NCBI GenBank assembly: GCA_038087875.1
Contig: CM075991.1
Span: 4,898,001 to 4,962,000 of the forward strand
Origin: Malacoraja senta
Lineage: Eukaryota
Direction: 5' to 3'
DNA length: 64,000 bases
The position numbers were made by a program, and so were the translations under genes. Below the pieces are notes generated by a model. It worked only from the letters and a program-made list of their open reading frames with translations, made no database searches and was not told where the DNA came from. Shown here piece after piece: positions 39,290 to 63,567 of the stretch. How positions within the stretch are numbered: position 1 is the stretch's first letter; each line of letters begins with the position of its first letter.

Positions 39290-41654
39290 CCGGGCAACCA
39301 CCTTCGTCTCCAACTCCTGCCAGTTCGCCGGCCAAGCATCCTCAGTGGGACTCAGGTAAACCCCAGATAGAGGAGATGTGTAGTGCTCCACACATACCTT
39401 GCCATCTCCTCCGGCAGGGAATCCACCTGCCACTGACCCACTAAAAGACCAGAACACTTACTCCAGTTAATCCTTGCAGAAGATGCAGCTGAGAAAATCT
39501 CCTGGCAGTCACGCATCCTCCGCAGGTCACCAGGATCAGTGAACATAAGAAGTACATCATCTGCATACGCTGAAAGAACCACCTCCAACCCCGGCCCAGG
39601 TAGGGCCAGGCCTGTCAACCTCCTCCGAAGAAGACACAGGAACGGCTCCACACAGACCGAGTACAACTGACCCGACATGGGGCACCCCTGACGGACCCCT
39701 CTCCCAAACTGAAAGGGAGCCAACAACGCACCATTAACCTTCACCAGTCACTCCGCTGCAGCGTACAAAAGCCGGACCCGGGCCACAAAATGCGGTCCAA
39801 ATCCAAACGCTTGCAACGTCCCGAATAGGTAATCATGCTCTACCCTATCAAAAGCCTTCTCCTGATCAAGAGACAGAAAAGCAGCTGACTGACCAGTACC
39901 CTGAACTATATGAATCAGGTCCCTAACCAAGTGGATGTTATCCTGAATGGACCTGCCAGGGACCGTATAGGACTGGTCAGGATGAATCATTTGAGACAGC
40001 ACAGGGCCCAGGCGATTAGCCATTGCCCGTGCAAATACTTTATACTCTGTACATAGGAGAGATACCGGCCTCCAGTTCTTCAACACGCGGAGTTCGCCCT
40101 TCTTGGGCAGCAAGACAACAACTGCCCTACGCCACGATAGGGGCATCGCCCCGGCCGCCAGACTCTCCCCCAGCACCAACATGTAATCACCCCCCAGGAT
40201 CTCCCAGAAAGCTCTGACAAACTCCACCGTCAACCCATCCATCCCGGGTGACTTACCCTTCCTGAGCTGAAACAATGCACAAGTCACCTCCTCCAAAGAT
40301 AAGGGGCCATCAAGAAGATCGGCCACCTCCCTATCAATAGTCGGTAGACCCTCCCACAATTCCTTCTGAGCCTCCCCGTTATACCCCCCTGCGGAGAACA
40401 GGGACCCATAAAATGACCTGACCTCCTCACTGATCCTCTCCGGATCAGTGACTGAGGATCCATCATCTGCGAGCAGCTCTACGAGCTGCTTGCAGGCTCC
40501 CCTCCCTTTCTCCAAAGAGAAAAAGAAAGGCGACGCTCGGTCCAGATCTTGCATCATCTGTACCCGCGCCCTCACGAAAGCGCCTCGGGACCGCTCAAGC
40601 AGCAGATTCCTCAAGGCTTCCTTCTTCTCCTGAAACTCTCCCCATTCACAGGAGTCCTCACCATCCCGACCCAGGCGAGACTCTGCACCCTGTAGCTCCC
40701 TCTCAAGCCTCGCGACCGCTGAGTCCCTCCGTCCTGTCGACCCCCACGTATACTCCGTACAAAATAGACGAATGTGAGCCTTCCCCACATCCCACCACTG
40801 CCTAAGGGAAGAGAAGCACCTCCGCCCCTCTCTCCACTTCCCCCAAAACCTACTGAATGACTCCCGGAAACACCGATCCTCCAGCAACCGGTTGTTAAAG
40901 TGCCAGTACGTGGACCCAGCCCTAGCGCGCGCCGGATTAAAGTCCACACGCACCAGACAGTGATCCGAGCATGGCACCACCCGCATTGAAGCCTCTGAGA
41001 CACGGCCAACAAACGCTCGGGAAATATATATTCTGTCAATACGGGAACCACCACCCTCATACCTCCGCGAAAAAGCATTGGAATCCGGATGGAGGTTCCG
41101 CCATGCATCAACCAACTCAAAGGATTCAATCATCCCTCTCAACTTCTTCGCTACAGCAGGGGCACACTGAGTACCAGAACGATGTCCCGCCTCAAGTGTG
41201 CAATTAAAGTCCCCACCAAGGAAAACACACTCTCCCCTATCAATAGTGCTCAACAGAGCAGTCACCTCCTGAATTAGGGAATTAGGCCAGCCCTGCATCG
41301 TACCGGAAGCTAGGGGGCATTACACGTTAATGAAATTGCAACGGCATGCCATCCAAGCTCACTGCCAGATGGAGCAACGTCCAGGCACAACTTCATTCAC
41401 TTTTAAAATCGTTGGCAGGAAATTCTGGCCAACAGAAAGGCCACCCCACTCGAATTTGAGCTGAGATGGCTCATGTAAACCCCCCTTCCCACTCCAGTCT
41501 CCAGGTAGGTTCATCACTAACAACTGTGTGCGTCTCCTGCAGAAAACCACACTGCAAATCTCCCCTCTTTAAGGCCTGATAAAAGCTGAAATCTACGAAA
41601 ACTCGATCTACTCCCGTTTAAGTTTAATGTTGCGACGGTGAATGTAAAGGCCCA
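39290..41654 (-). pseudogene. Tx1 ORF2 (AP endonuclease plus reverse transcriptase), interrupted
   Basis: A 516-aa open segment (39748-41298) continues in frame after a single TGA into 39352-39744. Frameshifts near 39360 and 41300-41600. Confidence 0.9.
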
Positions 41655-44381
41655 CTTTATTAAACCCCCTCAGTCCCCGTAGACACAAACAAATTTCTCT
41701 CTGAGTAACCCCAAAAGTCCCCAAACTGCCCCACCTCTACGTCAGTAAGATCACTCTCCCTGCTGCCAAGATATCCTCGAGAGTCGGAATCAAACCAGGC
41801 AGATCATCCCACCGCCTACTAGCAGCATCCAATCTTGTTCTTGCGGAGCGGCTTGTTCTGAGAAACTCTCGAACCACCTTTATCTCACAATCAAGGAGCC
41901 TCGGCCTTGGAGTCTGGGCACTCGGCCCAACGCACTTGCACCTGCACCATCAGACTCCACATCACAACGTTCAAGGGCTCTTTCTGTAACTGAACGCCCA
42001 GAGCTCTCCAAAAGCTCTCCACCCCCACTACCCAAACTTTCCGGTTCACCCTTCCCCCTCCTCCTGCAAGACACCACCCCCAGGATCACTGCCAGGTAAG
42101 GGCCCGAAACCCCATCTGCAACAAGCATCCCCCTGACTGGCTTGGCCCCTGCACGCTACCCTCACCCTCCACGCCTTGCCTGGGGAAGCAAAACACTAGG
42201 CTCCCCCAGGGCCTGGGATACACTGGCACCTCTTGAAACTAAAGGGACATCACCACCCAAAACTATCCCCGACCTCCACAACACCTCTAGCATCCCCACC
42301 ACTAGCAACACCCAGATGCTCGCCTCTTACTTTTAGCCTTCCCCTTCCACCTCATCCGGCGATGCAGCACACCCCCCATTACCACCACTGGCACTGATGT
42401 GCAGCATAGACTGGAACACCACAGCCCCCGACCACCCCCTCAGGCTGACTCTGCTCATCCTCCATCTCAGGGGCCCCCTACCAGGGGCACATACCCCATC
42501 CTCTGGCGTTCCATCACCCTCAAGAGGCCTCTGAAACGCGGGGACCTCCTCCGACCCAGAGGACACCCCCCCAGGGGAGCTCACCTCACCACCCGATGAG
42601 ATAACTCCATCGGAGGACGCCTGAAATGAAGACAGCCACCCGCCCAGAGGACACACTCCAGCGGAATCACCCCCTCACCTGCCCTAATTTTCGCCTCACG
42701 CCCTTCCTCTTCCTCGCCAGGCCTATTCCTTTCACCCCACTAGGCATGCGGCAGTACGGTGACCTCCATAAAGGAAGGGTCTTCCACCCCCTCCCTACCC
42801 CCATCCACTATACCCCCCGCACCCTTTACCAACCCTTCCCCCGTCTGAGCGATCTCATCGCCTTGCTGGGCCACATCAAGCACACTCTGGACCTCACTAG
42901 AACTAACACGCATATTTTTACTCTCCGGATGGCCCTTTCCCTTCTTCTTCCTCCCCTTCTTCACCTCCCACTTCCCCTCCCCGTCTTCATCCTCCCCTCT
43001 CCACCCTCTCCCTCCCCTCACCATTAGCCACCACCACCGCCACAGTCTCAGGGACGCAGGGCCTAAGGCCTTCCCCGCCGGGTCCCAAGGCAGAACCTTC
43101 AGACCCAGATGGCCTATCACTTCCGCCCGGACCCCCGAGTAGAGCTAGCCGCCCTAGCCAGGTCAGCAGTGCCGCCCCGCGCCACCGAGGCATGATGTAC
43201 CACCCCGGATGGGCCAGCATTGCAATCCTGGGCCACTACGCTAGAACTTCTAGCAACGCCCCTTCGAGAAAGACACTCGTTACGGAAATGTTCCATATGC
43301 TCCACACTCATGACACCGTGCCTTCCCCCAACTCCAATACACGGTTCTATAGAGACCCTGACAATCCACCTCAAAGCTCCCCTCCTCGCCTTCGCCCTCA
43401 CCACCTTCATGAACACCCTCCTCTTAAAACTCAAGATCCCTCTTTCCTCCGGGTCCCCCCCGAGGTGCCTGAGCCTAAAGCACTTAGACCTCACCTCCCC
43501 AATCGTAGACAGGTGTGGCATAAGTGCAGCATCCGAAATAAATGTGGGGCAAGTCCGCAGGAGAACCGGTCTCACCCTCGATAACCACGGATCCACCTGT
43601 AATTGGATCCCCCCCACTGATATCCCCCTCTCCAACGCCATTTTCACACCCTCCTCGGTCTTCAAATCATCTCCACCTTGCCTCTTACAAGCTCGGAAGA
43701 GACAACATCCCGCCCCCCAATAAGGTCATTCACGGCCTTGGTAATTGCACCCCTAGACATCTGGGGCCCAGTTTGGACCGAGATACCAAACTTGCCCCAA
43801 TTCAAGTTCACATAAGGCTCATGCTCCACTGTCCTCGCATCCGTCTCTGATGCCGCCACTGCGTAGCTCCGGTTCTTCGGCCTCGCCCCAGCCTTCGCCA
43901 TCCTGACAGAGGCACAACCAGCTCCAATCGCCCCGGCAGCTCAGCTCCACGTTAACTCCTGCAAACAGTCACAGTCAACAAGTAGCAGAACTCTGAAGCC
44001 TCCAGCTACAGCCAGAAAATCCCAAAGACGTCCACAGCCGACAGCAGCTTTTGGGAAGCTCTATCCCATTCTTTCCGAACTCAACAGTACCATCTTCACA
44101 TTAAACCCGACATCCGCCGGAGCAAAATGCCTTTTTTTCCGTTCCCTCTAATACCATCCACTCTTGGCAGTCCGCCAACGACAACCGCACCCTCGACAAT
44201 GGAAAAAATATCTCCGGAATGTCCGCACTTGTGGAGAATTCCTAGAGCAGAGAAAAGTTTCACCAGTCCAACAATAAGTTAGACCATGAAGCCCCTCTGC
44301 CTCTGTTCCTTCCCCATCGACAACGTCCTTGAAAGCTGTTTGAATCCTTCTCAACTGCAGAGCTGAAAAAAAGACAGCCAG

Positions 44382-44382
<1 letters not shown>
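39290..44382 (-). mobile_element. Tx1-clade (L1 group) non-LTR retrotransposon with an apparently complete 5' end; 3' end lost in the gap
   Basis: 5' UTR about 43902-44382. ORF1 starts at 43901 (MAKAGARPKNRSYA..., PTFISDAALMPHL, ILSFKRRVFM, degenerate zinc knuckle near 43280-43320). ORF2 starts near 41654 with APE motifs (TVATLNLNG, LGGDFNC, SRIDRIY, SDHC) and RT motifs (KSPGMDG, KNWRPVSLL, SLDQEKAFDRV, GVRQGCP, YADD). Confidence 0.95.
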
Positions 44383-44457
<75 letters not shown>

Positions 44458-44470
44458 ACTCTCTCTCTCC
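44383..44470. repeat. (TC)n/(GA)n microsatellite between two Tx1 elements
   Basis: Direct reading. Confidence 0.98.
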
Positions 44471-44471
44471 C

Positions 44472-45048
44472 ACTCTCTTTTTCCAAGGACATTAAACAAC
44501 AATTGCTTATTACAGTGTACCAAAAAGTACAGACACGTTCAATGGCCACTATACAGCAATCAGTCATTATAGTACAAGGGTGCAATCGTTATTACAAATG
44601 CTTTCGACTCCCCGCGGCGACCAGTGTCAACGGAAGTCCTCCAGAGTCCGTGTGGGTACCGCGTGTTCCATATCCAGGGACACGCGAGCACCGACGAGGG
44701 CCCGAATGGGGGCAGGAAGCCGACTCTGTTGTGACCATCGACCGCTCGCTGCCTCGATCCGCGAATGGCCATCTTGGCCAGGCCCAGGAGCAAACCAACA
44801 GGAGGTCCTTCCTTCCGACCCCCCCCCCCCACTCCGTGCCCTGTGCTCAAACACCAAGATCGTGGGACTAAAATGCAACCAAACTTGAGGAGCAACCCTT
44901 CAGAAATTCGGACAGGGGCAGCAATCTCTCACACTCCATATACACGTGGAACACGGTCTCTTTCTCGCCGCAGAAGTTACAGGCGGCGCAAGTCTGTGTA
45001 CCGACTCAAAAGTTAATTACGCATCACGGCTCTGTGCAACACTCTCTG
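44472..45048 (-). mobile_element. 5'-truncated Tx1 3' end flanked on both sides by (TC)n
   Basis: Degenerate ORF2 C-terminus: CNFCGEKETVFHVYMEC, HFSPTILVF, LLLGLAKMAIRGSRQRAV, ARVSLDMEHAV. Short 3' UTR. (TC)n at 44383-44470 and 45050-45086. Confidence 0.85.
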
Positions 45049-45052
45049 TATG

Positions 45053-45087
<35 letters not shown>

Positions 45088-45317
45088 CCCCCTCTCGCCC
45101 CCTCTCTCCCTTCTTTCCATCGAGCCCCCCCCACCCCCCTGCTCCCCACACCCCTGCTCACCCGAGCATATTCAACCCTGATCGTGTTGCGATCACATCT
45201 CTGTCTCCCTACCCCCCCCCCCCCCCAACTCTCTCTCCCGACTCCCCCTTCAGCCTTGAGATGCCAGTTCCGTGATCGGGATCACATCCTGTGAGCTAAA
45301 GGGAGATGATTACTTAC

Positions 45318-47159
45318 GGGTCACGGCAAAATATAACCAAAGAGCGAACACATGCACTTCCAGCAATTGGAGCTATTCCAATGTTCCCCGATTCATGAGA
45401 CGTCCCGTCGTGTGTGTCAAAGCAGACGCCCCTAGCTGTTGGTGACAAACACAGCGGGAGGTTAATGTCCCGTCAGGGAGTGCAGTGGCCCTCGGGGGTA
45501 GCGGGGCCGTGGTGATACGTCAATACTAACTCTCCCTGGAAATGAGCCATTCAGACCATTGGGAAGAGCGTGTGCATTGACCAGGATCCAGCATTTGGCT
45601 GCACGGCACCGTTTCAGCCGGGTTCGGGCATCAGCACCCTCCCCAACGCCCTGTTACTCATCTCAGAGGCCCAACTGCGAAATTGATGTCCAGAACTCAA
45701 TGCACATCTGTTTAAATAAAATTCAATGTATTCAGCTATTTAAGGAATTATTTAGGCATGGAACTATAAGAAACACCCACCGCCATAATATCAGACTGTC
45801 AATGATCGCAAACAAATATCAAATCACTATGTTACGATTCAAGAGACAGTCGGGCCCTCGCGACGGCCAGCCGTCCTGGGATCACCTCCCGGATGTCAAT
45901 GGACACTATGTGTTCTTTTTCAAAGGACAAACTGGCGCCAACATAAACTCGGGAAAGAAGCGGGCAGTCGGCTAGTGTGGAGCCCTCGTCTGCCGCAAAT
46001 GGCCAGGTTTGGCCAGGCGCAAGGTTTGATAGACACAAGTCATCCTCTGATCTCCCCCCCCCCGCACAGGGTGCACACAGATTAGTACGGTGGTTCTGAA
46101 GTGGAGCTAGAAAGCAAGGAGTAGCCCATACAAGTAGCTCACTCCATAAATTGTGTCGGAGGAAACTTCAGATACTGGTTTGCACCGAAGATTGACAAAA
46201 TGCTGGAGTAAACACTGCGGGTCTGAAGAAATGTCTGGGACCCGAAACGTCACCTATTCCTTTTCTCCAGAGGCTGCCTGAACCGACAAGTTACCCAGCA
46301 TTTTGTGTCTGTCACTCCATAATTGTGCACGTTTCGCAGTTCCCCCTTGATTACAGTGTGAACCCTGACCCACTGTGATCCCCAATACCCATCCGGGCTG
46401 TGGTGCCGGGAACAGTTACGGGTTTGAGAGGAACTCCTGGGGGCACTTTCACCATTTTCGGGCAAAACGCGTCTCGCGGCCAATGAAGAGCTGGTGAGGT
46501 GTCGCCATTGTTGTCGGGAAGCGGGACTTCCATTGGTGCACGGCATGATCCCACACAGCCCAGTGATTGGCTTCTGATGACCAGGTCCATCAACAGCTGT
46601 TGAGGACAAACACTGGTCAGTGTAAAGGGGCAGCGGTACTTAATTCTAATGAGATCCTTCAATCCACCTGTGAACAAAGTTTAGTGCCTCAGCTGAAGTG
46701 CGGCAGAGGAGCGCACCCTCAACTGAGGATTAGTCCGGGGCATCAACCTCCACTACTATCAGACTCCTACCGCCCGCGGAACCAAGTGTGACGAGCTTTA
46801 GCGTCGCGCCTTGAGTGTGATGTCCTGCTCAGTCCCTGTGTCGGCCGAGTCTCACTGCCGGATCAGAGTGAGATTCATATCGATAGATTACCGCTTGTGT
46901 GCTGTGCCGTAATGAAGCAGGCGGCTTCCAACCGCTGAGCGGCGAGAAGCAGCAGAGCGATGCACAGTTGGTGTTTCTGCACAGAGAGAGCGAGAGATGG
47001 ACAGCTTGGTGACCGTCGTGGTCAAGTAACTAACATTGCACCCTGCCCCTGTCACTGTCACCTCGGAAGGCGGCTGTGCAACGAATCGAAGCTGCGTTGT
47101 GTTGTTCATTGAACAACCCAAGAACAGTCGGATGCACAAACCTGATCCGTACATACCAT
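45318..47159 (-). pseudogene. MSMB: MSMB-like copy A: exon 1 (47157-47159), exon 2 (46892-46976), exon 3 (45318-45435); exon 4 not visible
   Basis: ATG|GTATGT; exon 2 KHQLCIALLLLAAQRLEAACFITAQHTS with intact splice sites. Exon 3 has a -1 and a +1 indel relative to paralogs. Intron 3 is occupied by Tx1 elements that run into the assembly gap. Confidence 0.75.
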
Positions 47160-48355
47160 GATCTCCGAACCAGACACTTCTCTTCAGTGTCTGAGCGGAC
47201 AATCTCTGCCCCGCTGGCACCGCCTGCAGACTTCATTCTCCGCTCTCGAGAACCTGCTTTTGACCCTTGCTGATGCTGCCTGCGTTTTATCCATTCAGAA
47301 AAGAGGTGGAGTTTCGCTGGTGCCGCCTTTCACTTCACCGGTCTTTCAACCAGCGTATCATCCTTAAAGTCATGGAGCACCGAAATTGACCATGCCTCTC
47401 AAACTGCGCCATCTCCGCTAGTCCCACCCACAAGTGCTTAGCCCATGTCCGTGTAAACCTTTCTATTCCATGAACCCGTCCAAATGCCTTTGAATGCTAC
47501 TGTGAGAACTTGTCTCACTGCTCTCCAACTTGGGAAACAGGCTCTACGCCTAAACTGCCCCCTCACCAACATGTCCCATCTACACTAGTCCTACTTACCG
47601 GCGTTTGGCCCATATCCATCTAAACCTATCCTGTCCGTGTACCTGTCTAATTGCTTCTTAAACGTTGCGATAGTCTGTGCTTCAACTACCTCCTCCGGCA
47701 GCTCGTTCTATGCACCCACCTCCATGTGTGTGTCAAAGGTTATGCCCCAGATTCCTATCATATCTATCCCTCTTCACCTTAAAACGGTGCCCTTTTAACT
47801 GTTTCTCCATTTCCATGATCTTAATATCCACCAGGTCTATATGTCTGATGGTTTTATACACTTCCCTAGAAGCCTTTGAATTTTACTTGCACGTACTCCA
47901 ACTTACATTTCCTCGCACACTCGAGTTCCCAAACACGCCACAGCGTTTTCCTAGAACCTTCCATTTCTCCAGCCAATTTCTTATTGAAATGATGGGTTAG
48001 ATGGAACCAATAACAGGTTTAGTAGCACCACTGGGCCTCATTCCCCATTTTCAAGCTAAACGTATCAAAGCCTTCAAATTTAATTATTTTCAGGTTAATT
48101 TACATATTCCATAGATGTATTCTCTTTACAACCTACATTTTGTTCAATTTAAATGTTCTCAATCATTGAAGTTCCCAGAGCCTCCTCCATCTCACGCCCC
48201 CTTTCGTATTGAATGATGGGTCAGAAGACGACGGCAGAACATGTTTGGTAAATATTTATTGTGATGCAAGAGTCATTACATTACATTCCATGCAAGAGTC
48301 AAGGCTCGTTGATGTATGTCTCCACATTTGAAGGAGTTGTCTGGTTTATTCCAGC

Positions 48356-48485
48356 TCATTTCCCAACAAGTATATCCACTTGACACTCGGCAGACGGGTC
48401 GTTCTTCCTTATGGCATGAAACGAACAAGTCCTAATATCGAAAGTTAACATACATTCGCTCGAGTAACCAGATGGCATGGCATAC
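48356..48485 (-). CDS. MSMB: MSMB-like copy B exon 4 (terminal)
   Basis: ttccctAG acceptor; (R)YAMPSGYSSECMLTFDIRTCSFHAIRKNDPSAECQVDILVGK-TGA. Splice phases 0/1/2 join all four exons into a 110-aa ORF with 10 mature-region cysteines. AATAAA at 48345-48350 and 48255-48260. Confidence 0.93.
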
Positions 48486-48799
48486 CTAGGGAACAGATCA
48501 AGGACCAATGATAAACAATTGGAAAGATCTGCCTCGCTGCGCTAGGAAAGCGGATTGGATCCTGACCTCAGGTCCAGACTGTGGAGTTTCCATGTTCTCC
48601 CTGTGACTGCGTGGGTTTTTTTTAATGGATGCTCTAATTTCCTCCCATACCCCATATATTTGCGTGTCAGGAGTTAACTGACGCTGCAACGTGCCCTGAG
48701 CGTGCAGGTGGAGACTAATATTAGGTCCAACACTAAGATCGATGCGGGGAGGATAAAACAGAATTAATTCATGGTCGATCTCTCTCTCTCTCTCTCTCT

Positions 48800-49315
48800 T
48801 TTTTCCTTTCCAAAGACGTTATTCAGCAACTGCATACTGCAGTGGACCAAAACGTACATAAACGTTCAATGATTACAATACATCAAACAGTCATTATAAT
48901 GCAATGGTGCCAATCAATATTGACAATGCTCTCGACTCCCCGCGGCGACCACCGTTCACGGAAGGCCTCAAGAGTCCCCGTGGACACCGCGTGTTCCCTT
49001 TCCAGTGACACGCGAGCACGGACATAGGCCCGGAAGTGGTGCAGGCAGCCGACTCTGTGGTGACCATCGACCGCTCGCTGCCTGGACCCACGAATGGCCA
49101 TTTTGGCCAGGCCAAGGAGCAAACAGACAGGGAGACCCCCCCATCCATCGGCCCTCCCACTCCCCGCCCTATGCCCAAACACCAGGATCATGGGACCTAA
49201 ATGCAACCAGAACTTGAGGAGGCAGCCCTTCAGATATTTGTACAGGGGCAGCAACCTCACGCACTCCGTATACATGTGGGGCAGCAACCTCACGCACTCC
49301 GTATACATGTGAGCA
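48800..49315 (-). mobile_element. 5'-truncated Tx1 3' end in intron 3 of MSMB-like copy B
   Basis: HMYTECVRLLPLYKYLKGCLLKFWLHLGPMILVFGH...LLLGLAKMAIRGSRQRAV...RARVSLEREHAVSTGTLEAFRERW. The 3' end abuts (TC)n at 48779-48798. A 33-bp tandem duplication lies at 49245-49310. Confidence 0.85.
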
Positions 49316-49501
49316 CGATATCTACATACCCGCATAAAATATAGGCCTGACTACTCCTTCTCCGGAAGGGAGTGGGGGCCATCAAGGATACATTTACCCT
49401 TATGAGGCACCGCGGGCTACAAAGTGCGGTCTGAGTCCAAATGCCCGCAGAATCTCCATCAGGTAGTCGTGATCCACCACTAAAAGTGAATGATTACTTA
49501 C

Positions 49502-49616
49502 CGCTCGCAGCAGTCATAACCTTGGCGCGAACACAAGCAATCCCAGCAGTTGGTCACCCAACTTTCTCCGTATGGATGATACGTCCCGTCGGTTAGATCA
49601 TGGCACATGCCCGCAA
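49502..49616 (-). CDS. MSMB: MSMB-like copy B exon 3
   Basis: cAG acceptor; 115 nt encoding (V)AGMCHDLTDGTYHPYGESWVTNCWDCLCSRQGYDCCE(R); GTAAGT donor. Shows the PSP94 pattern C-x-D-..-H..G..W...C..C.C......CC. Confidence 0.93.
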
Positions 49617-49722: not shown

Positions 49723-50899
<1,177 letters not shown>

Positions 50900-50908
<9 letters not shown>

Positions 50909-52560
50909 ACATAGCTAAAAACTGCCATCTGCTCTTCCGGTTTGCGTTGTGTTTACATTTGTGCAAAAATGGTACCCAATAGCGTTATGATATTTCGCCA
51001 CCCTACTCGCCATTTCCTGTGCTACAAACGCAAAAAGTTGTGTTCCGACTGGTGGAAGATTACAAAAGGTTTTAAGGTTTAAATTCGTTAAAAAAAACTC
51101 GCATGCGCCGATTGGTCTCCTTTTCTGTCGGCAGATTGGTCTTCACTCCTGCATATCGCCGGGACGGCGATGTCCCTTGTGGCGCCCGCTGTTACTCACC
51201 GGCGGCGAGGTGAAAAAAGTTGAAGGAGCAGAATAAGTTGCGTTTGGCGAGCGGCTGGGGCTGCGTATGCGGCGACCACCACTATGAGCCGGGAGCCGTT
51301 GAGTGGGGCCAGAAACCGCTGAGGCAGGGAGCTGCTGAGTGAGGCCAGGAGTCGTTGAGTGAGGCCAGGAACCGCTGAGTGAGGCCGCGAGGTGGCTATG
51401 AGTGAGGCCGCGAGCCTCTGACTGAGGCCGGGAGCCGTTGAGTGAGGCTGGCGCCGTAGAGTGAGGCTGGAGCCGGGGCCGGGGCCGGCGCCGGGATCTG
51501 ATGAGTGCAGCCGGCGCCGGGGCCAAGAGCCGCAGATTGAAGGCGGGAGCTGATGATTGAGACCGGGGCCGGGAGCTGCTGATTGAGGCCGGAGCCATGG
51601 CCGGGAACTGCTTAGTGAGGCCGGGGCCAAGGACGGGAGCGGATGAGTGCGGCCAGAGCCCCTCACCCTGCCCTCATGTCCTCCCACACCCCCCCTCCCC
51701 CCACACACCCACTCCGCACCCACACCACCCTCACCCACCGGCCCCCGACAGCTCCCGCTGAAGCCGTCCCCCTCCCCCGGCTGCAGAACGCCCCACCCCA
51801 CAGGCCCGCCATCCCCCTCGCCCGGCCGCAGGGCGCACCCCCACCGCCGCTCAACAGCCCGCCTGAAGCCGCCCCCTCTGCAGGATGCTCCCCACTGGGC
51901 CCCGCCTGAAACCGATGGGGAGCGGCAGCGGTAGGCGACGACAGCGATATGCCACAGCTGCGGTAGTGATAGGCAGCGGCAGCGGTAGGCCACGACAGCG
52001 ATAGGCAGCGGCAGGCCACGACAGCGATAGGCAACGGCAGTGGCAGGCCATGGCAGTGGCAGGTGTAGGCAGGAAGCGGTAGGAAGTGGCAGCAATAGGC
52101 CACGACAGCGCTCCCCATCGGCCCCCGGCAGGCACCGCCGGAAGCCACCCCCTCTCCCAGCTGCAGGACGCCCCTCCCTCCCCCACCAGCCCCGGACACC
52201 CCCTGCCTGAAGCCACCCCCCTACCCCGGCTGCAGAACGCAACAAGAGACGACTGAATGAATTTCATCTTTAACGTTTACTTTGATGTTATATTTTAAGT
52301 TGTTCACACTTTAAGCTTTAATCAATCCCCTTTACACTAGCCGTGCCCGTCAGCTGCGCATGTGCTGTAATACCTGCGTGGTTTACGTCACAATGGGCGG
52401 GAATGACTGCGCAGCCGGAGGGCCGCTAAGAGTGGATGGGGGTGGGGGGGGGGTGAGGGGGGATTGAGTGAGTGTCCGGGGGTGGAGGGCAAGGGCGGTG
52501 TGGCTGGGGCGGGGGGGGGGGGGGGTGAGGGGCGTCACAACGGGAACCCGTCAGCCGCGC
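50900..52560 (+). mobile_element. GC-rich insertion with internal minisatellites, possibly a non-autonomous Helitron-like element
   Basis: Absent from the homologous intron of copy A. Begins TCTATATACATAGCTAAAA. Internal tandem units of about 20 bp (gagtgaggccgggagccgtt, 51290-51630) and about 30 bp (ggcagcggcagcggtaggccacgacagcgata, 51920-52110). The family assignment is weak. Confidence 0.45.
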
Positions 52561-53589
52561 CTGTATTCTCCTAATTTATGCATGAAACTATTAAATAAAG
52601 CCTTACCGCCTTAACATCAGACTATAAACTATCACTGCCCAAATACCAAATTACTATGTTACAATCATGAAACAGGAGACAGCCCTGGCGGTCCTGGAAC
52701 GCCTCCACGGTGCTAGTGGGCACTGCGTGTTCTTTTTCAAGGGACGACAGTCGGGCTCGGGCGTAAGCTCGCCAAAGGGGCGGTCAGTCGGCTCTACTGA
52801 AGCCCTCGTCTGCCTGCACTGACCTACCCACTCTCCTCCTCTGCCGAAAAATAAGGATGGTGGGATTGAATTAGAGCCAGAAAGCAAGGAGCAGCCCAAT
52901 CAAATAGCTCGCTCCGTGATTATGTAGGAAGAAAATGCAGATGCTGCTTTCCGCAGAAGATTGACACAAAATCCTGGAGTAACTGTACGGCTCAGGTCTG
53001 AAGAAGGGTCTCGACCCCAACCATCATCTGTTTCTTTTCTCCAGACATGCTGGCTGAACAGCTGAGTTACTCCAGCATTTTGTGTCTATCACTCCCTAAT
53101 TTTCGCCGTGCCCGTGGTTACAGTGGCCCTGACCCACTGGGACCGCAATACTCATCCAGGCTGTGGGTGCCGGGACCACTGGACGAACTCCTGGCGTAAT
53201 TTCCCAATTTTCAGGCAAAACCCATCTCGCGGCCAATGAGGAGCTGGTGAGATGTCGCCATTGTTGGCGGGACCGTGGCTTCCATTGGTGCACGGCATGA
53301 TCCCACACAGCCCGGTGATTGGCCTCTGGTGGACCAGGTCCATCAACAGCAGTTGAGGGACACATATTGGTCAGTGTAAAGGGGCAGCTGCACCAAGTGC
53401 GACGAGGAGCGCTCACTCAGCCGAGGATGGTCGGGGCATCAGCCTCCACTATCCTCAGACTCCAGCCCTACCGAGGCACAGGCGGGGCGCCAAGGGGTGA
53501 CGAGCTTTAGCGAAGCCATGAGTAAAATGTACTGCTCAGTCGGAGTCTCACTGCCGGATCTGAGAGTGAGATTCACGTCGATATCATAC

Positions 53590-53674
53590 CGCTTGTGTCT
53601 TGTTGCCGAAAGGTGCAGGAGGATTCCGACAGCGGAGCAGCGAGAAGCAGCAGGGCGATGCACAGTAGTAGTTT
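53590..53674 (-). CDS. MSMB: MSMB-like copy B exon 2 (signal peptide and first Cys)
   Basis: ctccctccgcAG acceptor; 85 nt encoding KLLLCIALLLLAAPLSESSCTFRQQDTS plus 1 nt; GTATGA donor. Confidence 0.9.
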
Positions 53675-53853: not shown

Positions 53854-53856
53854 CAT
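53854..53856 (-). CDS. MSMB: MSMB-like gene copy B (intact), coding part of exon 1 (ATG only)
   Basis: Minus strand reads gagatcATG|GTAAGT. An ATG-only first coding exon is the known MSMB architecture, and the same arrangement is present in copy A. Confidence 0.85.
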
Positions 53857-53984: not shown

Positions 53985-54050
53985 GGCTATTTATTCAGAA
54001 AAGAGGTGGAGTTCCGCTTGTCTCGCCTTTCATTTCACCGGTCTTTCACC
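53985..54050 (-). promoter_or_regulatory. Putative core promoter of MSMB-like copy B (TATA-like AATAAATAG)
   Basis: AT-rich box about 135 nt upstream of the ATG. The flanking block (cagaaaagaggtggagtt...ttcaccggtctttca) is conserved upstream of copy A at about 47285-47350. Confidence 0.45.
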
Positions 54051-54060
54051 CCCCCCCCCC

Positions 54061-54389
<329 letters not shown>

Positions 54390-54396
<7 letters not shown>

Positions 54397-55575
54397 TTGC
54401 AGAATAATCCCAAACTCGGGGGTGATGTTTGGCAAATTTGTAAAAAGAACACAATGTAACTGAGAGCAACTCAGCTGGCCAGAAGGCACCATAGGAGAAC
54501 ATAGGAGACTTCAACTCGATCGGAGTTGGTGGGCACAGACTGGGAGCGACCGGAGATGCGGTCACTCAGACGATGGGCCCCAACCTGAGTGTGATGTGTG
54601 ACGGCCCCAAGTTGCTTATCCATATTCTCCCAGAGATGTGGCCTGACCCAATTGTCTGAAAGGCCTGTGTGACTCTATGGTTTGCTTCGACTGCACTTAG
54701 AACTTCTCCCATGCAACCTCTTCCCTCACTCTCCCTGTTGCAATCACAGCAGAGGAGAGATACCGGGCGCCAGGGCCCGTCAACTGTGCCCGACAATTGC
54801 CAACCCATTGCCAACAAACACGGCTCATACCCTCGCATCGGCGACGCCCCCTTGAGCCATGCGGTGCCATTTCACCCGTAGGGGTCAGATCCTGTGACCT
54901 AAATGCTAATCCTACGATGACTTACCTTTCGCAATAGCTTGACGAGGCATCACACGCCCTCGTCTGCCTGCCGGAATGGCCAGGTTAGCCAGGCCCAGTA
55001 GCAACCCAACTAGATCCAGCTCTGACCTACCCATTCTCCTCCGCACTTGGTGCCAAGCAATATGGATGGTGTGATTCAATTGGGGCCAGAAAGCAAGGAG
55101 CAGCCCATTCAAAGAACTCGCTCCGTAATTGTGTAGGAAGAAATTGCAGATCCTGGTTTACACCGAAGATTGGCACAAAATGCTGGAGTAACTCAGCGAG
55201 TCAGGTCTGAAGAGGGGTCTCGACCCGGAAACGTCACCTGTTCCTTTTCTCCAGACTTGCTCCCTGAACAGCTGAATTACTCGAGCATTTTGTGTCTATC
55301 ACTCCATAATTGGACAGGTTTCGCCGTATTCCCTGGTTACAATGTGAACCCCTGAGCCACTGGGACCCGCAATACTCATCCAGGCTGTGGGTGCCGGGAC
55401 CATTTACTGGTTTGGGAGAAACTCCTGGCGCAATTTCCCAATTTGCAGGCAAAACCCCTCCCGCGGCCAATGAAGAACTGGTGAGGTGTCGCCATTTTTG
55501 TCGGGAACTGTGGCTTCCATTGGGTGCACGACATGACCCCACACAGCCCGGTGATTGGCCTCTGATGATCAGGTC
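54390..55575 (-). pseudogene. MSMB-like fragment F: part of intron 3, 3' stub of exon 3 (about 54926-54940) and part of intron 2
   Basis: 54390-54590 and 54870-54925 match intron 3 of copy C (63210-63449). ...TATTGCGAAAG|GTAAGT is the exon-3 end. The rest of exon 3 is deleted and joined to intron-2 sequence. Confidence 0.7.
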
Positions 55576-56539: not shown

Positions 56540-56776
56540 CCGACCCATAGGAGACCTCTCACGACCATACAGGCGACCCTTGGCGACATGTCGCGGGTGA
56601 CCTCTCACGACCATACTCATGTAAGGTCGTGAGATATATGCTATGGTCGTGAGAGGTTTTCAAAGGGTCGTAGCGTCTTCTGGTCGCCGCTGAATTTTCA
56701 ACATGTGGAAAATGTCGGCGACCTATCACGGGTGCCGGCAGTCGCCTGTAAAGGTCGCATAAGTGTGACTGGCCCT
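56540..56776. mobile_element. MITE fragment of the same TIR family at the left boundary of inverted copy D
   Basis: Ends aagtgtgactggccct|tta; gtcg/cgac-rich interior. Confidence 0.55.
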
Positions 56777-56779
56777 TTA

Positions 56780-59700
56780 GGTACATGATCACGTTGCCGA
56801 TGAAACTTTCTCTCTCCCCCTCCCTCTGTGTGTGCAGATACTCCCACTGTGCATCGCTCTGCTGCTTGTCGGGGCTCAGCTGTCGGAATCCGCCTGCTTC
56901 TTTCGGAAACAGGACAGGAGCGGTAACGTATAGTCGTGAATGAATCTCTCTGTCAGATCCGGCAGCGAGATATAGAATCATCGAACATTGAAAATAGGTG
57001 CAGGAGTAGGCCATTCGGCTGTTCGAGCCCAAATTGGCTAATCATCCAAAATTAGTACCATATCCCCTGATTCATTTAACTAAATCTAACTCTCTCTTGA
57101 AAACATCCAGTGAATTGGCCTCCACTGCCTTCTGTGGCAGAGACTCGGTCGACAGCAGGAGCAGGGATTGAGCAGGACATCATATTCATGGCGCCACCCT
57201 AACGCTCATCGCCGTTGGCTCCCCGCCTGTTCCTCGGTGGGTTTGAAGTCTGAGTGTAGTGGGGGTTGATAGCCCGACCAATCCCCAGCTTAGGGAGCGC
57301 TCATCTGTCACATTTCAGCTGAGGCACTAAACCTTGTCCACGGGTGGATTGAGGGTCATAAGGTCATAAGTGATAGGAGCAGAAATAGACCGTTCGGCCC
57401 ATCAAGTCTACTACGCCATTCATTCAAGCCTGATCTATCTCCCTCCGAACCCCATTCTCCTGCCTTCTCCCCGCAATCCCTGACACCCGTACTAATCAAG
57501 AATCTATCTATCTCTGCCGTTAACATATCCTTTGACTTGGCCACGGCCTTCTGTGGCAAAGAATTCCACAGCTTCACCACCCTCTGACTAAAGAAATTCC
57601 TCCTCATCTCCTTCCTAAAGGAACGCCCTTTAATTCTGGGTCTATGACATCCAGTCCTGGACTCTCCCACTTATGGAAACATCCTCTCCACATCCACTCT
57701 ATTCACGTTTTTCACTATTCTGTACATTTCAATGAGGTTCCCCTCACACTCCAGCGAGTACGGGCCCTGTGCCGTCAAGCGTTCATCATATGTTAACCCA
57801 CTCATTCCTGGAATCATTCTTGTAAACCTCCTCTGGACCCTCTCCAGAGCTTACACATCCTTCCTCAGATATGGTGCCCAAAATTGCTCACAATACTCCA
57901 AATGTGGTTTGACCTGTTCCTTACAGAGCCTCAGCATTATATTCCTGTTTTTGTATTATAGCCCTCTTGAAATTAATGCTAGCATTGCGTTTGCTTTATT
58001 TACTACCAATTCGATTTGCAGGGTAACAATTTGATAATCCTGCACCAGATCTCTCAAGTCCCTTTGAACCTCCGATTCCTGGATTATTTCCCCATTTAGA
58101 AAATAGTCTACGCCTTTATTTCTACTCCCAAAATGCACGACTCCATACCGTATTCCACTATATTCCACCCGCCACTTCTCTGCCCACTCTCCCAACCTGT
58201 CCAAGTCCTTCTCCAGAGTTCCTGCTTTCTCTACATGACCTGTCCCTCCACTTATTTTCGTATCACCGGCAAATGTGGCCACAAAGCCTTCAACCCACTC
58301 ATCCAAATCATTAATATATAATGTGAAGAGTAGCGGCGCCAGCACCGACCCCTGCGAAACTCCGCTAGTCACTGGCAGCATACCAGAAATAACCCCCATT
58401 TACTGCCATTTTTTGCCACCAGCCATCCAGCCAACCTCCTATCCGGGTTAGCATCTGCTCTTTCACACCATGGGCTTCCATGTTCCTTAGCAGCCTCACG
58501 TGTGGCCCCTTATCAAAGGCTTTCTAAAAATCGAGGTGAACAACGTCCACCGATTCTCCTTCGCCTGTCCTGCTATTGACTTCTTCAAAGAATTCCAGCA
58601 GATTCGTCAGGCAAGACCTCCCTTTCACAAAATCATGCTGACATCCGTCTATTTTATCGTGAACTTTGAAATACACCGTAACCTCATCCTTTAAAATGCA
58701 CTCTAAAATCTTACCAACCACCGAAGTCAGACTAATCGGCCTATAGTTCCCACTATTCTACTTTGCTCTCTTCTTCTGCAGCGGGGTAATATTGATAATT
58801 TTTCAATCATCTGGAACCATTCCTGACTCTTGTGATTCTTGAAGTATCACTATTAATGCCCCAACAATCCCTGAAGCCACCTCTTTCAGAACGCGCGGTT
58901 GCAGTCCATCGATCCAGGTGACTTATCCTCTTTCAGCCCTTTCAGCTTTCCAAGCACCTTCTCCTTAGTAATCGCGACTCCACTAACTTCCACCCCCTGA
59001 TTCTCTTAAATTTAAGGCACGTTGATGGTGTATTCCCCTGTGAAGACTGACGAAAATCAAAATACTCAACTCCTCTGCCAATTCTTTATTCACCTATTAT
59101 CACTTGTCCTGCATTATTTTCCAGCGGTCCAACGTACACTCTTACCTCTTTCTTGCTCTTCATATAACGGGAGAAACTCTTGCTATCCTCTTTTAGATTA
59201 ATAGCTTGCTTAACTCTTGATATCCTCTTTGATATTACTCGCTATCTTATTTCATCTTTTCTCCCGTATTGCTTTTTAGTTACATTCTGTTGCTTTAAAA
59301 GCTTCCCAGTCCTCTGGCATGCCACTAATTTTTGCAATGTTATATGCCTTCTCTTTTAGTGTTATACTGTCCTTGACTTCCCTTGCAGGCCACTGTCGCA
59401 TCATTCTCCCCCTAGAAACGTTCTTCTTCTTTGCAATTAAAAGATCCTACATCCTCCGACTAATTCCCAGAAATTCTTGCCACTGCTGTTCCTCCAGCAT
59501 CCCTGCTAGGGTCATTTTCCAGTCAACGTTGGCCAGCTCCTCCCTCATGCCTCTGTACTGACCTTTGCAATGCCGACATACGATTTCACCTTCTCCGTCA
59601 CAAATTGCAGGTTAAACCTTATCATATTTTGGTCGTCACCTCCTAGTGGTTCCTTTACCACGAGTCCCCTTATCAAATCCGGTTCATTACACAACACTAA

Positions 59701-61136
59701 ATCCAGAATTGCATTTTCCCTGGAGGGGTGCACCACAAACCGATCTAAGAATCCATCTCGTTAGCACTCTACAAACTTCTCTTTCTTGGAGTCCAGTGCC
59801 AATCTGATTTTCCCAATCAACCTGCATATTGAAATCGCCCATGACCACCGCAGCATTGCCTTTCTTACAGGCAGATTGTACCTCCTGATGTAACGATATC
59901 CTAGCTACTGTCTGGGGGGCTGTAAATAACTCCCATGAGGGTCTTTATACACTTACGATTTTCAGCTCTATCAACAGTGACACTACATCCTCTGATCCTA
60001 TGTCACCCCTCGCTAAAGACTGCATTTTATTCCTTACCACCAAATCTACCCCTCCCCCTTTGCCCACCTGTCTCTCTTTCCGATAGGACGTGGATCCTTC
60101 AATAGAAATTGAGGATCTGCTCAGAATTAATTGCTGCTGCCCCTGTACACTGACAAATATTTCACCCTCAACTGCTATTGATGGACCTGGTCTTCAGAGG
60201 CCAATCACTCGGATGTGTGGGATCATGCCGTGCCCCCAATGGAGGCCACGCTTCCCTACAACAATGGCGGCACCTCACCAGCTCTTCACTAGCCACGAGA
60301 CGAGTTTTGCCTCAGAATGGGGAAAGTGACCCAGGAGTTCCTCCCAAACCAGTAGCACTCACAGCCTGGATGAGTATTTGGGATCCCAGTGTGCCAGGGG
60401 TTCACACTGTAACCAGGGGCAACGACGAAACCGACCCATGTATGGATTGATGCACACGAAATGCTGGAGTAACTCAGCGGTTCCGACAGCATCTCTGGAG
60501 AAAAAGAATAGGCGACGTTTCGTGCCGAGACTCCTCTTCAGACCTGATCCGCTAACTGACAGAGATACCCCAACATTTTGTGTCAATCTTCGGTGTAAAC
60601 CAGGATCTGCAGTTTCTTCAGACATAATTATGGAGTGAGCTATTTGAATGGGCTGCTCCTTGATTTATGGCTCCGCTTCCGTCCCACCATCATAATCTGT
60701 GTGTACCAAGTGCGGAGGGGAGTGGGTAGATGAGAGGAGGATCAGATTGGTTTGCTGCTGGGCCATTATTGCGTCAAGGCGCCAAGCAGACGAGGGTTCC
60801 ACATCCTCGCCCGACTGTCCCTTGAAAAAGAACACGCAGTGCCCACTGGCACAAGGGAGGTGTTCCAGGACCGATGGCCGCAGCGATGGAATTGACTGTC
60901 TCCTGGATCAAGAATGTAGCATAGCAATTTGGCATTTGCTTGCGATCTTTGACAGTCTGATGGTGGTGGGTGTTTTGGTCAATGCATAAACAATTCTGTA
61001 AGTTGCTGAATATATTCAATTTTATTTTAAATATATATATAGAGTGAGCGCTGACCACCAATTCCCCAGTTGGGCTTCCGAGATGAGTGAAGTTGGGTGT
61101 TGGGTTGGGGGGCTGGTATCAGATCCCGGGTGAAAC
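56780..61136 (+). pseudogene. Inverted MSMB-like copy D: intact-looking exon 2 (56838-56922) plus intron 2; exons 1, 3 and 4 not found
   Basis: tgtgtgcAG|ILPLCIALLLVGAQLSESACFFRKQDRS plus 1 nt|GTAACG. 60090-61136 is the reverse complement of intron 2 of copies A/B/C and stops short of exon 3. Confidence 0.75.
57356..60090 (-). mobile_element. Degenerate CR1 LINE (ORF2 to 3' tail) inside intron 2 of MSMB-like copy D
   Basis: ENAILDLVLCNEPDLI, QHDFVKGRSCLTNLLEFFE, VTSGVSQGSVLAP, ESRTGCH..RIKGRSFRKEMRRNFFSQRVV. Octamer tail (catAAGGT)n at 57356-57372. Confidence 0.93.
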
Positions 61137-61189
61137 ATAGAGAATAGGCGGAGGAGTAGGCCATTCGGCCCTTCGAGCCAGCACCGCCC

Positions 61190-61378
61190 ATTCCTTATGG
61201 AAATGATAGGTCAGAAGACGACGGCAGAATGTTGGGTATATGTTTATTGTGAAATGAACTTTACATGCAAGAGCTAAGGCTCCTGCATCCCATTGTTGAA
61301 TGCCTCTAAATTGGAAGGGAGCTGTCTGTTTATTCCAGCTCATTTCCCAACAACTCAATGCACTGGGTATTCGACAGA
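61190..61378 (-). pseudogene. MSMB-like fragment E: 3' end of exon 4 and 3' UTR
   Basis: Matches 48200-48395 and 62600-62795. Reads VEYPVH*VVGK*, with the last Cys lost and a premature stop. Confidence 0.7.
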
Positions 61379-62757
61379 TTATCTCTTGAATAATTCTGAC
61401 CTGTGTAACTGTCTGCGTGGAGAGTGCAATTTCCCGCCACGGCGTGATTACACCGTGTGCTCTGGTTACAAGGGCCTGCAAATTTGTGATGAACTTGCCA
61501 TTGCAGTAGGTCATGAGTATTCATGGGAGTGGTGGGAACTATCGGGAATGTGTGGAGAATTTTTTTTAAGTCTGGAGTAACTCCGCGGGCCAAACAGCAT
61601 TTCTGGACAACACCGACTTGTAACATTTCGAGTCGGTTGCTGTCGGTAGGCCCGTCGTGGGATGCGATCACTCTGAAAACGGATTCCAAGCCAAATAGTA
61701 GCTTGCACATGATCAACAGGGATGCAGAATGGCGAACTGCGTTACTCCCGTCCTTCGTGTCTTGTGGTAGTGGTAAACCACCATCTACAGTTCCATGTGT
61801 GGACATGTTAGGATAATCATCTGCGTCAGGGTAGGATGTTCTCCATGTTCTCCGCAGATGCGGCCTGACCCAGTGGACAATAGGGCCTGTGTTCGTGCCG
61901 TATGACTCTATGGTTTGCTGCGACTGTACTTTATGGTTCCCTGTGCCGAAAGTGAGCATGCATCTCAAAATCACCCATCTACTGGAAGTGTTTAGCCCAT
62001 GTTTGTCAAACCAGCTTGCTCATATACCTCTAAACCAATCCTATACATGTACATGTCTATGATTTCTTAAGTGTTGCATTAGTTCCCCTTCTGGCTGCTT
62101 GTTCCATACACCCATCGCCCTTTGTGTGAAACGGTTATCCCCAAGGTTCCGACTGAATCCTTCTCCCTTCACCTTGAACCCATGTCCTCGGGATCTCCAT
62201 TCCGCCACTCTACGCAAGAGAATTCGTGCGTCGACCCTCTTATGATTGTATACACCTTTGTAAGATCACCCCTTCCTGCGTTCCAATGAATCAACTCCCA
62301 GCCTGCTCAATCACTCCCTATTAAATTAAATTTCATCAACCATTCCTCAGCCCAACTTCCATTTTCTCACACACTCGTTCGCGAACGCACCACGCCATTT
62401 CCCAGTGCCTTCCCTTTCTCCAGCCCATTTCTTCAATGGTTTGTGAGGGGTCACTAGGCCTCGTACCCCACGTTCAGGCAAAACGCATCAATTCCTTAGG
62501 ATTTATCACTTTGCATATTCAGTGACATTTCATAGTAATATGTTCTTACAAATTACACTTCGTTCAATTTACATTTTCTCAAAAACACTTGTATCTCACG
62601 CCCATTTCTTATTAAAATGATGGGTCAGACGATGACAGCAGAATAGGTTTGTTATATATTTATTGTGGGCTGGAGTCGTTACATTATATTCAAGAGTCAA
62701 GTCTCCTGTATCCCATTGATGAATGTCTCCGCGTTGGAGCTGCCTGTTTATTCCAGC

Positions 62758-63567
62758 TCATTACCCAATAGCTGCACCCACTGAACATTCGACAGCCGGG
62801 TCATTCTTCATAAAGACTTGAACAAGTTTTAATTTGGAAAATTAACATTCATTCAGCTGGGACACCAATTGGTACGAAATACCCGGGGAACAGATCAGGG
62901 AATCAATGATGAACAATTTGGAAGATATGCCTCACAGCGCCAGGGACGCGGGTTCGATCCTGACCTCGGCTCATGTCTGTGTGGAGTTTTTTTACGTTCT
63001 CCCTGTGACTGCCTGGGTTATTTTTAGGGATGCTCAAATTTCCTCCCACGTCCCAGAAACTTGCGGATCGGGAGGTTAAATAACGCTGTTACTTGTCCCG
63101 AGCGTGCAGGTGGAGAATAATATCTAGGTCCTGCCCTGAGATCCAACCATAATGCGGGGTGAATAATGGAGGATTAATGCATGGCCGTAGTTAACGGGGA
63201 TTTATCGTCTCTCTCTCCTTGTGGAATAATCCTAACCTCGGAGCATTTTTTTTCATGGACACAGTACTGAAGCAACTTTGCGGCCAGGCAGAACCCCTGG
63301 ACTTTTTGAGTCGGTCGCAGTCAATGAACCCGGACTGGGAGCGCTGGAGATGCGGTCACTCGAACGACGAGTCCCAACCTGAGAACACGCTTAGCCTGTT
63401 CACCCGTCGGGGTCAGATCCTGTGAGCTAAACGGCGGATGATTACCTACCGTTCGCAGCATTCATAACCCGCGCGCGCACACACGCACTCCCAGCAGTTG
63501 GTGTTCATCCAACTTTCTCCGAATTGATGAGACGTTCCGTCGTTTGTGTCAAAGCACGTGCCACTAA
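62758..63567 (-). pseudogene. MSMB: MSMB-like copy C: intact exon 3 (63450-63567), disabled exon 4 (62758-62882); exons 1-2 would lie beyond the window end
   Basis: Exon 3 SGTCFDTNDGTSHQFGESWMNTNCWECVCARAGYECCER with good splice sites. Exon 4 has its acceptor AG changed to GG, a Cys codon changed to TGA (62849-62851), and a 4-nt deletion relative to copy B. Confidence 0.8.

What the first reader, a model, noticed from the sequence alone, without database searches (positions are those of the whole stretch)
39290..49315. Tx1 elements repeatedly hit the (TC)n microsatellite in MSMB intron 3; filled and empty paralogous sites coexist
Seen: the long Tx1 starts exactly at the (TC)n at 44383. A truncated Tx1 (44472-45048) has (TC)n on both sides. 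The Tx1 piece in copy B ends at (TC)n 48779-48798. All three are in the same orientation. The homologous spot in copy C has only a short empty tctctctctc (about 63208-63217). Established: some Tx1 families are sequence-specific, including Kibi for TC repeats. Inference: a Kibi-like family uses a microsatellite that every duplicated gene carries, making the cluster a recurring landing pad and possibly inactivating copy A.
Basis: partly seen in the sequence, partly recalled or inferred. Interest (0 to 1): 0.72.

Follow-up and report, generated by a model that had tools for sequence, protein, structure and literature searches.

The report
Jumping genes homing on TC repeats
Three decayed Tx1-type jumping genes sit against TC microsatellites in introns of a duplicated beta-microseminoprotein-like gene cluster, likely because they home on such repeats, a habit already known from related elements of bony fish and crocodiles.

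Summary
The observation mostly holds. Three Tx1-clade retrotransposon copies lie in one orientation, and 4 of their 5 visible junctions abut (GA)n on the element strand. Copy B's insertion sits at the spot where copy C has an empty (TC)5; remnant D has about (TC)159 there. The two 3' fragments look like separate insertions (pN/pS 0.49). Target preference is the best reading (about 0.75), but the genome-wide flank test could not be run. Copy A's tract is not shown to be the homologous one, and remnant F has no tract. An older Tx1 fragment in intron 2 has no (GA)n. Filled B is the only intact gene; empty C is broken, and A has its own exon-3 lesions. The long element groups with shark and ray elements beside Xenopus Tx1, not with the teleost pol-like clade that probably holds Kibi. 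It has a shorter endonuclease hairpin. So it works like Kibi but is probably not Kibi. The scan noted microsatellite-flanked LINEs with other repeats in other genomes, with no look-alike of this sequence.

The parts
39290..44382 (-). Long Tx1-clade non-LTR retrotransposon: 5' UTR, broken ORF1 (ATG 43901), broken ORF2 (APE endonuclease + RT, about 41650 down to the gap); 3' end lost at the assembly gap
   Evidence: Pfam RVT_1 and Exo_endo_phos; 48% to Xenopus Tx1 ORF2, 85% to unnamed P0275; 5 frameshifts and 2 stops in 760 codons against P0016
39090..39289 (.). Assembly gap (200 N) that hides the long element's 3' junction and possibly exon 4 of copy A
   Evidence: no exon-4 match below 44000
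44383..44477 (+). (TC)36 plus interrupted units; 5' flank of the long element and 3' flank of the truncated one
44478..45047 (-). 5'-truncated Tx1 (ORF2 C-terminus, 3' UTR, A5); 5' junction has AGAG microhomology to the tract
   Evidence: tblastn; 5 frameshifts and 2 stops in 150 codons; junction
45053..45086 (+). (TC)n on the 5' side of the truncated copy; not shown homologous to the B/C/D tract
45318..45435 (-). Copy A exon 3, with two compensating 1-nt indels that lose Trp and Cys residues
   Evidence: no PSP94 hit
45794..46132 (-). Old Tx1 3' fragment in intron 2 of A, also present in B (52689-52906), D (54964-55113) and inverted E (60641-61013); no (GA)n at its 3' end
   Evidence: nhmmer E 9e-17, 7e-10, 5e-6, 6e-17; scores 55-92 against shuffled maxima 32-37
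46892..47157 (-). Copy A exon 1 (ATG then GT) and exon 2 (46892-46976, signal peptide)
48356..48485 (-). Copy B exon 4 (coding part, intact)
   Evidence: PSP94 E 0.006, below the cut-off; beta-microseminoprotein chains E 0.003
48779..48798 (+). (TC)10 at the position homologous to C's (TC)5; 3' flank of the B insertion
48799..49478 (-). Internally deleted Tx1 in B intron 3: RT piece (about 49345-49478) fused to the ORF2 C-terminus, 3' UTR and A6; 33-nt tandem duplication at 49245-49311; no (TC)n at the 5' junction
49502..49616 (-). Copy B exon 3 (intact; exon 2 at 53590-53674, exon 1 ATG near 53856)
54079..54395 (+). About (TC)159 of remnant D at the homologous intron-3 site; its exon-4 side is deleted and abuts B's promoter
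61185..61960 (-). Remnant F (exon-4 end and part of intron 3) with no TC tract
63208..63217 (+). Empty (TC)5 in intron 3 of copy C (exon 3 63450-63567; exon 4 62758-62882 with GG acceptor and early stop)

Best explanation
Three broken Tx1-clade retrotransposon copies abut (GA)n tracts on their own strand inside introns of a tandem MSMB-like gene cluster, likely because their endonuclease prefers TC/GA microsatellites, and they probably arrived as separate insertions. The inferred mechanism is ordinary target-primed reverse transcription: a nick in the (TC)n strand primes on the short A-tail, so the repeat ends up on one or both sides. An intron-3 tract older than the B/C/D duplications took the B insertion. 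A tract in A took the truncated copy first, and the less decayed long copy probably landed later in the tract left at its 3' side. The insertions are intronic and are not shown to have inactivated any gene. Shown: junctions, B/C/D site homology, lesions, tree position. Inferred: nicking preference, order of events, cartilaginous-fish host.
For: 4 of 5 visible junctions abut (GA)n on 3 distinct tracts, while only 1.0% of positions are near such tracts. Empty homologous tract in C, and the same tract beside the same exon-3-side flank in D, with no Tx1 3' sequence next to either. The truncated copy has the repeat at its 5' junction, which a tail cannot explain. Truncated A copy against B piece: pN/pS 0.49 over 125 codons (Fisher p 0.002); neutral simulations reach this in 1.5-2.5% of runs at transition ratios near the observed one, and up to 7% at extreme ratios. 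At 24 listed sites where B differs from the run's other copies, A has the other letter at 14, B's letter at 5 and a third letter at 5. Lesions: 7 in 150 codons in the A copy, 0 in 120 codons of B's 3' piece. Known precedent: Kibi (TC)n, Koshi (TTC)n, crocodilian Tx1 in (TTCC)n/(TTTC)n (PMC4494074; PMC3812793).
Against: Only three events in one locus; genome-wide flanks not seen. B's 5' junction lacks the repeat. The old intron-2 Tx1 copy has no (GA)n in A, C or E, so 1 of 4 Tx1 insertions here is off-repeat. Divergence between the two fragments (0.18) lies in the range of paralogous introns (0.10-0.21), and the third-position excess alone is not significant (27 of 66, p 0.11). All 15 TC runs of the window lie on one strand inside the cluster, which seeding by elements could also give. 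Related sequence is very abundant in the runs (1707 contigs laid in X1), so some off-target copies are expected. Indels near the gap may be assembly errors.
Confidence: 0.75

Rival explanations
1. (GA)n is an element-encoded tail, and the tracts are seeded by the elements.
For: Both visible 3' ends are A5-6 then (GA)n; the long copy's 5' tract could be the truncated copy's tail; all TC runs of the window are on one strand within the cluster.
Against: The truncated copy has (GA)n at its 5' junction with no Tx1 3' end beyond it. C and D carry the tract with no Tx1 sequence beside it, and B's tract is at that same site. The old intron-2 copy has no such tail.
Confidence: 0.12
2. The truncated A copy and the B piece are one old insertion inherited through the gene duplication and later trimmed by deletions, so there were two hits rather than three.
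For: Fragment divergence of 0.18 matches paralog divergence; the cluster is full of deletions (D, E, F); an older Tx1 piece was in fact inherited this way in intron 2.
Against: pN/pS 0.49; lesions 7 against 0; A sides with other genomic copies at 14 of 24 sites; in intron 2, B is closer to D (0.10-0.12) than to A (0.12-0.16); A's site does not align to the B/C/D site.
Confidence: 0.1
3. The elements insert without preference and are merely retained near microsatellites in a decaying, deletion-prone cluster.
For: Passive accumulation is invoked for Drosophila Waldo-A/B (PMC3812793 passage); related sequence is abundant; one old copy is off-repeat.
Against: Junctions are flush with the repeat and share one polarity; no other Tx1 piece was found in the first 39 kb except one E 0.14 hit that I dropped.
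Confidence: 0.04
4. The tandem sense-strand insertions inactivated copy A, for example by premature polyadenylation.
For: At least 5.7 kb of sense-oriented LINE follows A exon 3, and exon 4 is not found; one AATAAA lies on the gene strand in the insert.
Against: A exon 3 is itself damaged, filled B is intact and empty C is broken; exon 4 may lie in the gap.
Confidence: 0.15

Closest known systems
Kibi (KibiDr1/2, KibiFr1, KibiTn1) and Koshi, Tx1 clade, teleosts (Kojima & Fujiwara 2004, not held; cited through PMC3812793 and PMC4494074 passages)
   Same: Two-ORF APE-RT element of the Tx1 clade inserted in a TC microsatellite
   Different: Falls outside the teleost pol-like clade; 7-residue rather than 11-residue endonuclease hairpin; host probably a cartilaginous fish; flank is (GA)n on the element strand, and Kibi's polarity could not be checked
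Xenopus laevis Tx1L (ORF2 P14381)
   Same: Nearest characterised protein, 48% identical; same supported 10-row clade (97/97)
   Different: Tx1L targets a site in the DNA transposon Tx1D (PMC4494074, PMC1950540 passages), not a microsatellite; its hairpin has 11 residues
Crocodilian Tx1 group 2 (Tx1-1_Crp and others)
   Same: Tx1 elements preferring pyrimidine microsatellites, (TTCC)n or (TTTC)n (PMC4494074 section 15)
   Different: Different repeat unit; sequences and tree figure not available here, so their relation to this lineage is untested
Keno (U2 snRNA-specific Tx1)
   Same: Tx1 clade; A-tail then target
   Different: Keno-like loci L011 and L015 are only 32-33% identical and are followed by U2 sequence

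Membership tests
Tx1 clade | ORF2 with APE endonuclease and RT | tested here: met
   Pfam PF03372 and PF00078
Tx1 clade | RT/EN phylogeny with Tx1 elements | tested here: met
   Groups with P14381, turtle and sturgeon proteins
Tx1 clade | ORF1 upstream of ORF2 | tested here: inconclusive
   Broken frame from ATG 43901 with a recalled Tx1-like motif; no Pfam or homolog hit
Kibi | Copies flanked by TC repeat | tested here: met
   In this window only: 4 of 5 junctions, 3 of 3 younger copies; 3 of 4 counting the old intron-2 copy
Kibi | More than 20% of genomic copies in the target repeat | tested here: inconclusive
   No genome held; the read tool skipped the repeat; no useful related loci
Kibi | Monophyly with Kibi/Koshi RT | tested here: not met
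   p-AU 0.012 and 1.3e-7; conditional on BAC82605 and BAC82609 being Kibi/Koshi, which is recalled and unverified
Kibi | Same strand polarity of the repeat as Kibi | not testable with these tools
   Primary paper and supplements not held
Kibi | Endonuclease nicks the TC repeat specifically | not testable with these tools
   Needs a nicking assay
MSMB/PSP94 family | Four exons with ATG-only exon 1, signal peptide and 10 Cys (features recalled) | tested here: met
   Copy B: 110 aa, 10 Cys after residue 19, GT-AG intron 3; exons 3 and 4 hit consecutive PSP94 profile parts, each below the cut-off; all 9 listed structure hits are beta-microseminoproteins
MSMB/PSP94 family | Orthology to the MSMB locus by synteny | not tested
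   Neighbouring genes were not annotated

The most novel reading that the evidence does not exclude
Cartilaginous fish carry their own Tx1 lineage, sister to Xenopus Tx1L, that evolved TC-microsatellite targeting independently of Kibi. It uses a shortened 7-residue glycine-rich endonuclease hairpin and possibly attacks the repeat from the opposite strand ((GA)n on the element strand). That would be convergent use of one microsatellite by two Tx1 lineages, with a named loop to test.
Probability: 0.3. Interest if true: 0.55.

Novelty: new member of a known kind. Interest (0 to 1): 0.3.

Why it matters
Microsatellite targeting by Tx1 elements is known, so the behaviour is not a surprise. The locus adds a filled/empty paralog pair and, in the papers I could search, a lineage and likely host group not reported with this target; Repbase, which I could not see, may already hold it. 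How APE endonucleases choose microsatellites is stated to be poorly understood (PMC3812793 passage), and the hairpin is a known determinant of nicking specificity (PMC1950540). A 7-residue natural variant would therefore give a direct test. The claimed effect on MSMB gene fate is not supported.

Tried and rejected
Laying three runs on the B site gave no flank information because the tool skipped the repeat; X3 laid nothing, and no RNA holder was listed, which says nothing on expression. Related-locus scans: viral contigs 0 confirmed in 4 protein scans and 0 in one pattern scan; metagenomes 3 weak loci, of which I examined 2, a decayed relative with no TC tract and a marginal hit; genome contigs 13 distant loci at 32-46%, none with a TC/GA tract of 12 nt or more and two followed by U2. 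Plasmids: no match. ORF1 homolog search: 0 of 2584 candidates. The idea that C's or D's flank is a decayed Tx1 3' end was rejected (scores 21-23, below shuffled maxima 32-37). 1 of 280 fetched proteins has (SL)n runs after a Tx1 piece (P0241); it looks like a chimeric gene model, so I did not use it. One nhmmer hit at 16529-16606 (E 0.14) was dropped. A 230-nt donor-to-tract distance in both A and C was treated as coincidence, because A's donor-side intron resembles the longer D form. Kojima & Fujiwara 2004, Christensen 2000 and the PMC4494074 supplements could not be read; they bear on Kibi identity and polarity. The tree was the quick substitute; one search is the careful one (25 rows, LG+G4). 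mis-cut A exon 3 and was redone.
Full report
Genes. The window holds a tandem cluster of beta-microseminoprotein-like genes on the minus strand. Copy B is complete: exon 1 (ATG near 53856), exon 2 (53590-53674), exon 3 (49502-49616) and exon 4 (48356-48485) give 110 aa with a signal-like N-terminus and 10 Cys, and intron 3 is GT-AG. Exons 3 and 4 hit consecutive parts of Pfam PSP94, each below the curated cut-off, and all 9 structure hits listed are beta-microseminoproteins. Copy A has exons 1-3 only. Its exon 3 carries a 1-nt deletion and a 1-nt insertion that keep the frame but lose the Trp/Cys core, and no exon 4 is found for it. Copy C has an intact exon 3, but exon 4 has a GG acceptor and an early stop.

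Elements. The long copy (44382 to the gap at 39290) has a 5' UTR, a broken ORF1 and an ORF2 with endonuclease and RT; ORF2 shows 5 frameshifts and 2 stops in 760 codons. The truncated copy (44478-45047) has 5 frameshifts and 2 stops in 150 codons. The B insert (48799-49478) is internally deleted: an RT piece 68% identical in DNA to the long copy is fused to a C-terminal piece with no lesion in 120 codons, although there is a frameshift in the RT piece and a 33-nt duplication. At least two families are therefore involved. A fourth, much older Tx1 3' fragment lies at the homologous place in intron 2 of A, B, D and E (E 6e-17 to 5e-6; scores 55-92 against shuffled maxima 32-37). It predates the duplications and ends in AT-rich sequence without (GA)n.

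Junctions and chance. On the element strand, the long copy's 5' end, both ends of the truncated copy and B's 3' end abut (GA)n. B's 5' end does not, and the long copy's 3' end is in the gap: 4 of 5 visible junctions, on 3 tracts. Only 1.0% of positions lie within 10 nt of a (TC)5+ tract (0.7% without the flanking tracts). If (GA)n were a tail, two coincidences would remain: the truncated copy's 5' tract and B's landing on the C/D tract. Target-site duplications cannot be defined inside a perfect repeat.

Filled and empty sites. B's exon-4-side flank aligns to C up to the tract, and D's exon-3-side flank aligns to C from the tract on, so the tract is older than the B/C/D split. C is truly empty. 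D cannot be called empty, because its other side is deleted. F has no tract. A's tract is unplaced: the flank toward exon 3 does not align above shuffles, and the other flank is beyond the gap. Run X1 also holds a 469-nt contig about 90% identical to B exon 3 and intron 2, with 206 nt on the intron-3 side that do not fit B's insert (table 8); this points to a further paralog or allele without B's 5' junction.

One insertion or several. The two 3' fragments differ by 0.18, within the paralog range of 0.10-0.21, so one inherited insertion had to be considered. Against it: pN/pS is 0.49 (Fisher p 0.002), reached in 1.5-2.5% of neutral simulations near the observed transition ratio and in up to 7% at extreme ratios. 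A carries the other genomic copies' letter at 14 of the 24 listed sites I scored and B's letter at 5 (73 further sites were not shown by the tool). Lesions are 7 against 0. The third-position excess alone is not significant (p 0.11). Separate insertions are likely but not proven.

Relationship. Nearest named relatives are a stingray (67%) and a horn shark (60%) protein, then sturgeon, turtle and Xenopus Tx1 ORF2 (48-54%); the teleost pol-like deposits BAC82605 and BAC82609 are at 38-39%. A cartilaginous-fish host is inferred from this. In the careful 25-row tree rooted on three distant loci (two followed by U2), the element lies in a 5-row clade (100/100) inside a 10-row clade with Xenopus Tx1 (97/97), apart from 12 teleost-type rows (100/99). 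Forcing it together with all 12, or with the 7 that include the two deposits, is rejected (p-AU 0.012 and 1.3e-7; groups were named after a first tree was seen). That these deposits are Kibi or Koshi is recalled, not verified. The endonuclease hairpin, located by the RDGH motif of Tx1L (PMC1950540 passages), has 7 residues in the window's copy, in P0157 and in the horn shark protein, against 11 in 19 of the 20 other rows printed. It is thus a lineage trait. That paper (abstract, passages, section 24) reports that loop changes alter specificity, but also that other factors contribute.

Genome-wide test. It could not be completed. No genome is held. Laying runs on the B site showed abundant related sequence (1707 contigs in X1, 598 in X2, 0 in X3; summed depth up to 284,967 against 36-39 on unique bins, which is not a copy number), but the tool skipped the repeat. 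Collection scans gave no close loci. Three unnamed proteins 98-99% alike and up to 85% identical to the long ORF2 each list a longest contig of 18,092 bases; this fits clustered copies on one contig but is unverified.

Literature. Seen as passages: PMC3812793, PMC4494074 (section 15; supplements not available), PMC4640811, PMC3747384, PMC2684134, PMC8869645, PMC6515669, PMC2996927 (nothing decisive). Kibi and Koshi are described as teleost elements in (TC)n and (TTC)n, and crocodilian relatives prefer (TTCC)n/(TTTC)n. Searches showed no report of TC-targeting Tx1 in cartilaginous fish; Repbase and subscription papers were not searchable. Earlier notes of this scan describe microsatellite-flanked LINEs with other repeats in other genomes; none resembles this sequence.

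Verdict. A real, probably target-driven pattern of a known kind. It works like Kibi, is probably not Kibi, and has no demonstrated effect on gene fate. Interest 0.3.

Noticed in passing
window 45794-46132, 52689-52906, 54964-55113, 60641-61013: Old Tx1 3' fragment shared by intron 2 of four paralogs, inserted before the duplications, with no (GA)n flank; a marker for dating the cluster
   Followed up: yes
window 54040-54395: Remnant D breaks at its long TC tract and is joined to copy B's promoter, so the microsatellite may also be a rearrangement breakpoint
   Followed up: partly
window 49723-50908 and 50900-52570: A 1.2-kb (TATC)n array followed by a GC-rich stretch with short tandem repeats inside intron 2 of copy B; origin not identified
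   Followed up: no
window 56770-61136: Inverted paralog E (exon 2 intact) with a roughly 2.7-kb RT-bearing LINE piece in intron 2; it ends next to remnant F, suggesting an inversion breakpoint near 61140-61185
   Followed up: partly
L004-L015: Contigs of two bacterial MAGs hold animal-type Tx1 elements, some in tandem, among U1, U2 and 5S genes; L011 and L015 end in an A-tail followed by U2 (Keno-like). Likely host DNA binned into the MAGs
   Followed up: partly
proteins P0157, P0274, P0275: Three near-identical relatives of the long element, each with a longest contig of 18,092 bases; possibly a tandem cluster
   Followed up: partly
window 49500-49569: Several contigs and higher depth over exon 3 point to more MSMB-like paralogs outside the window
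   Followed up: no
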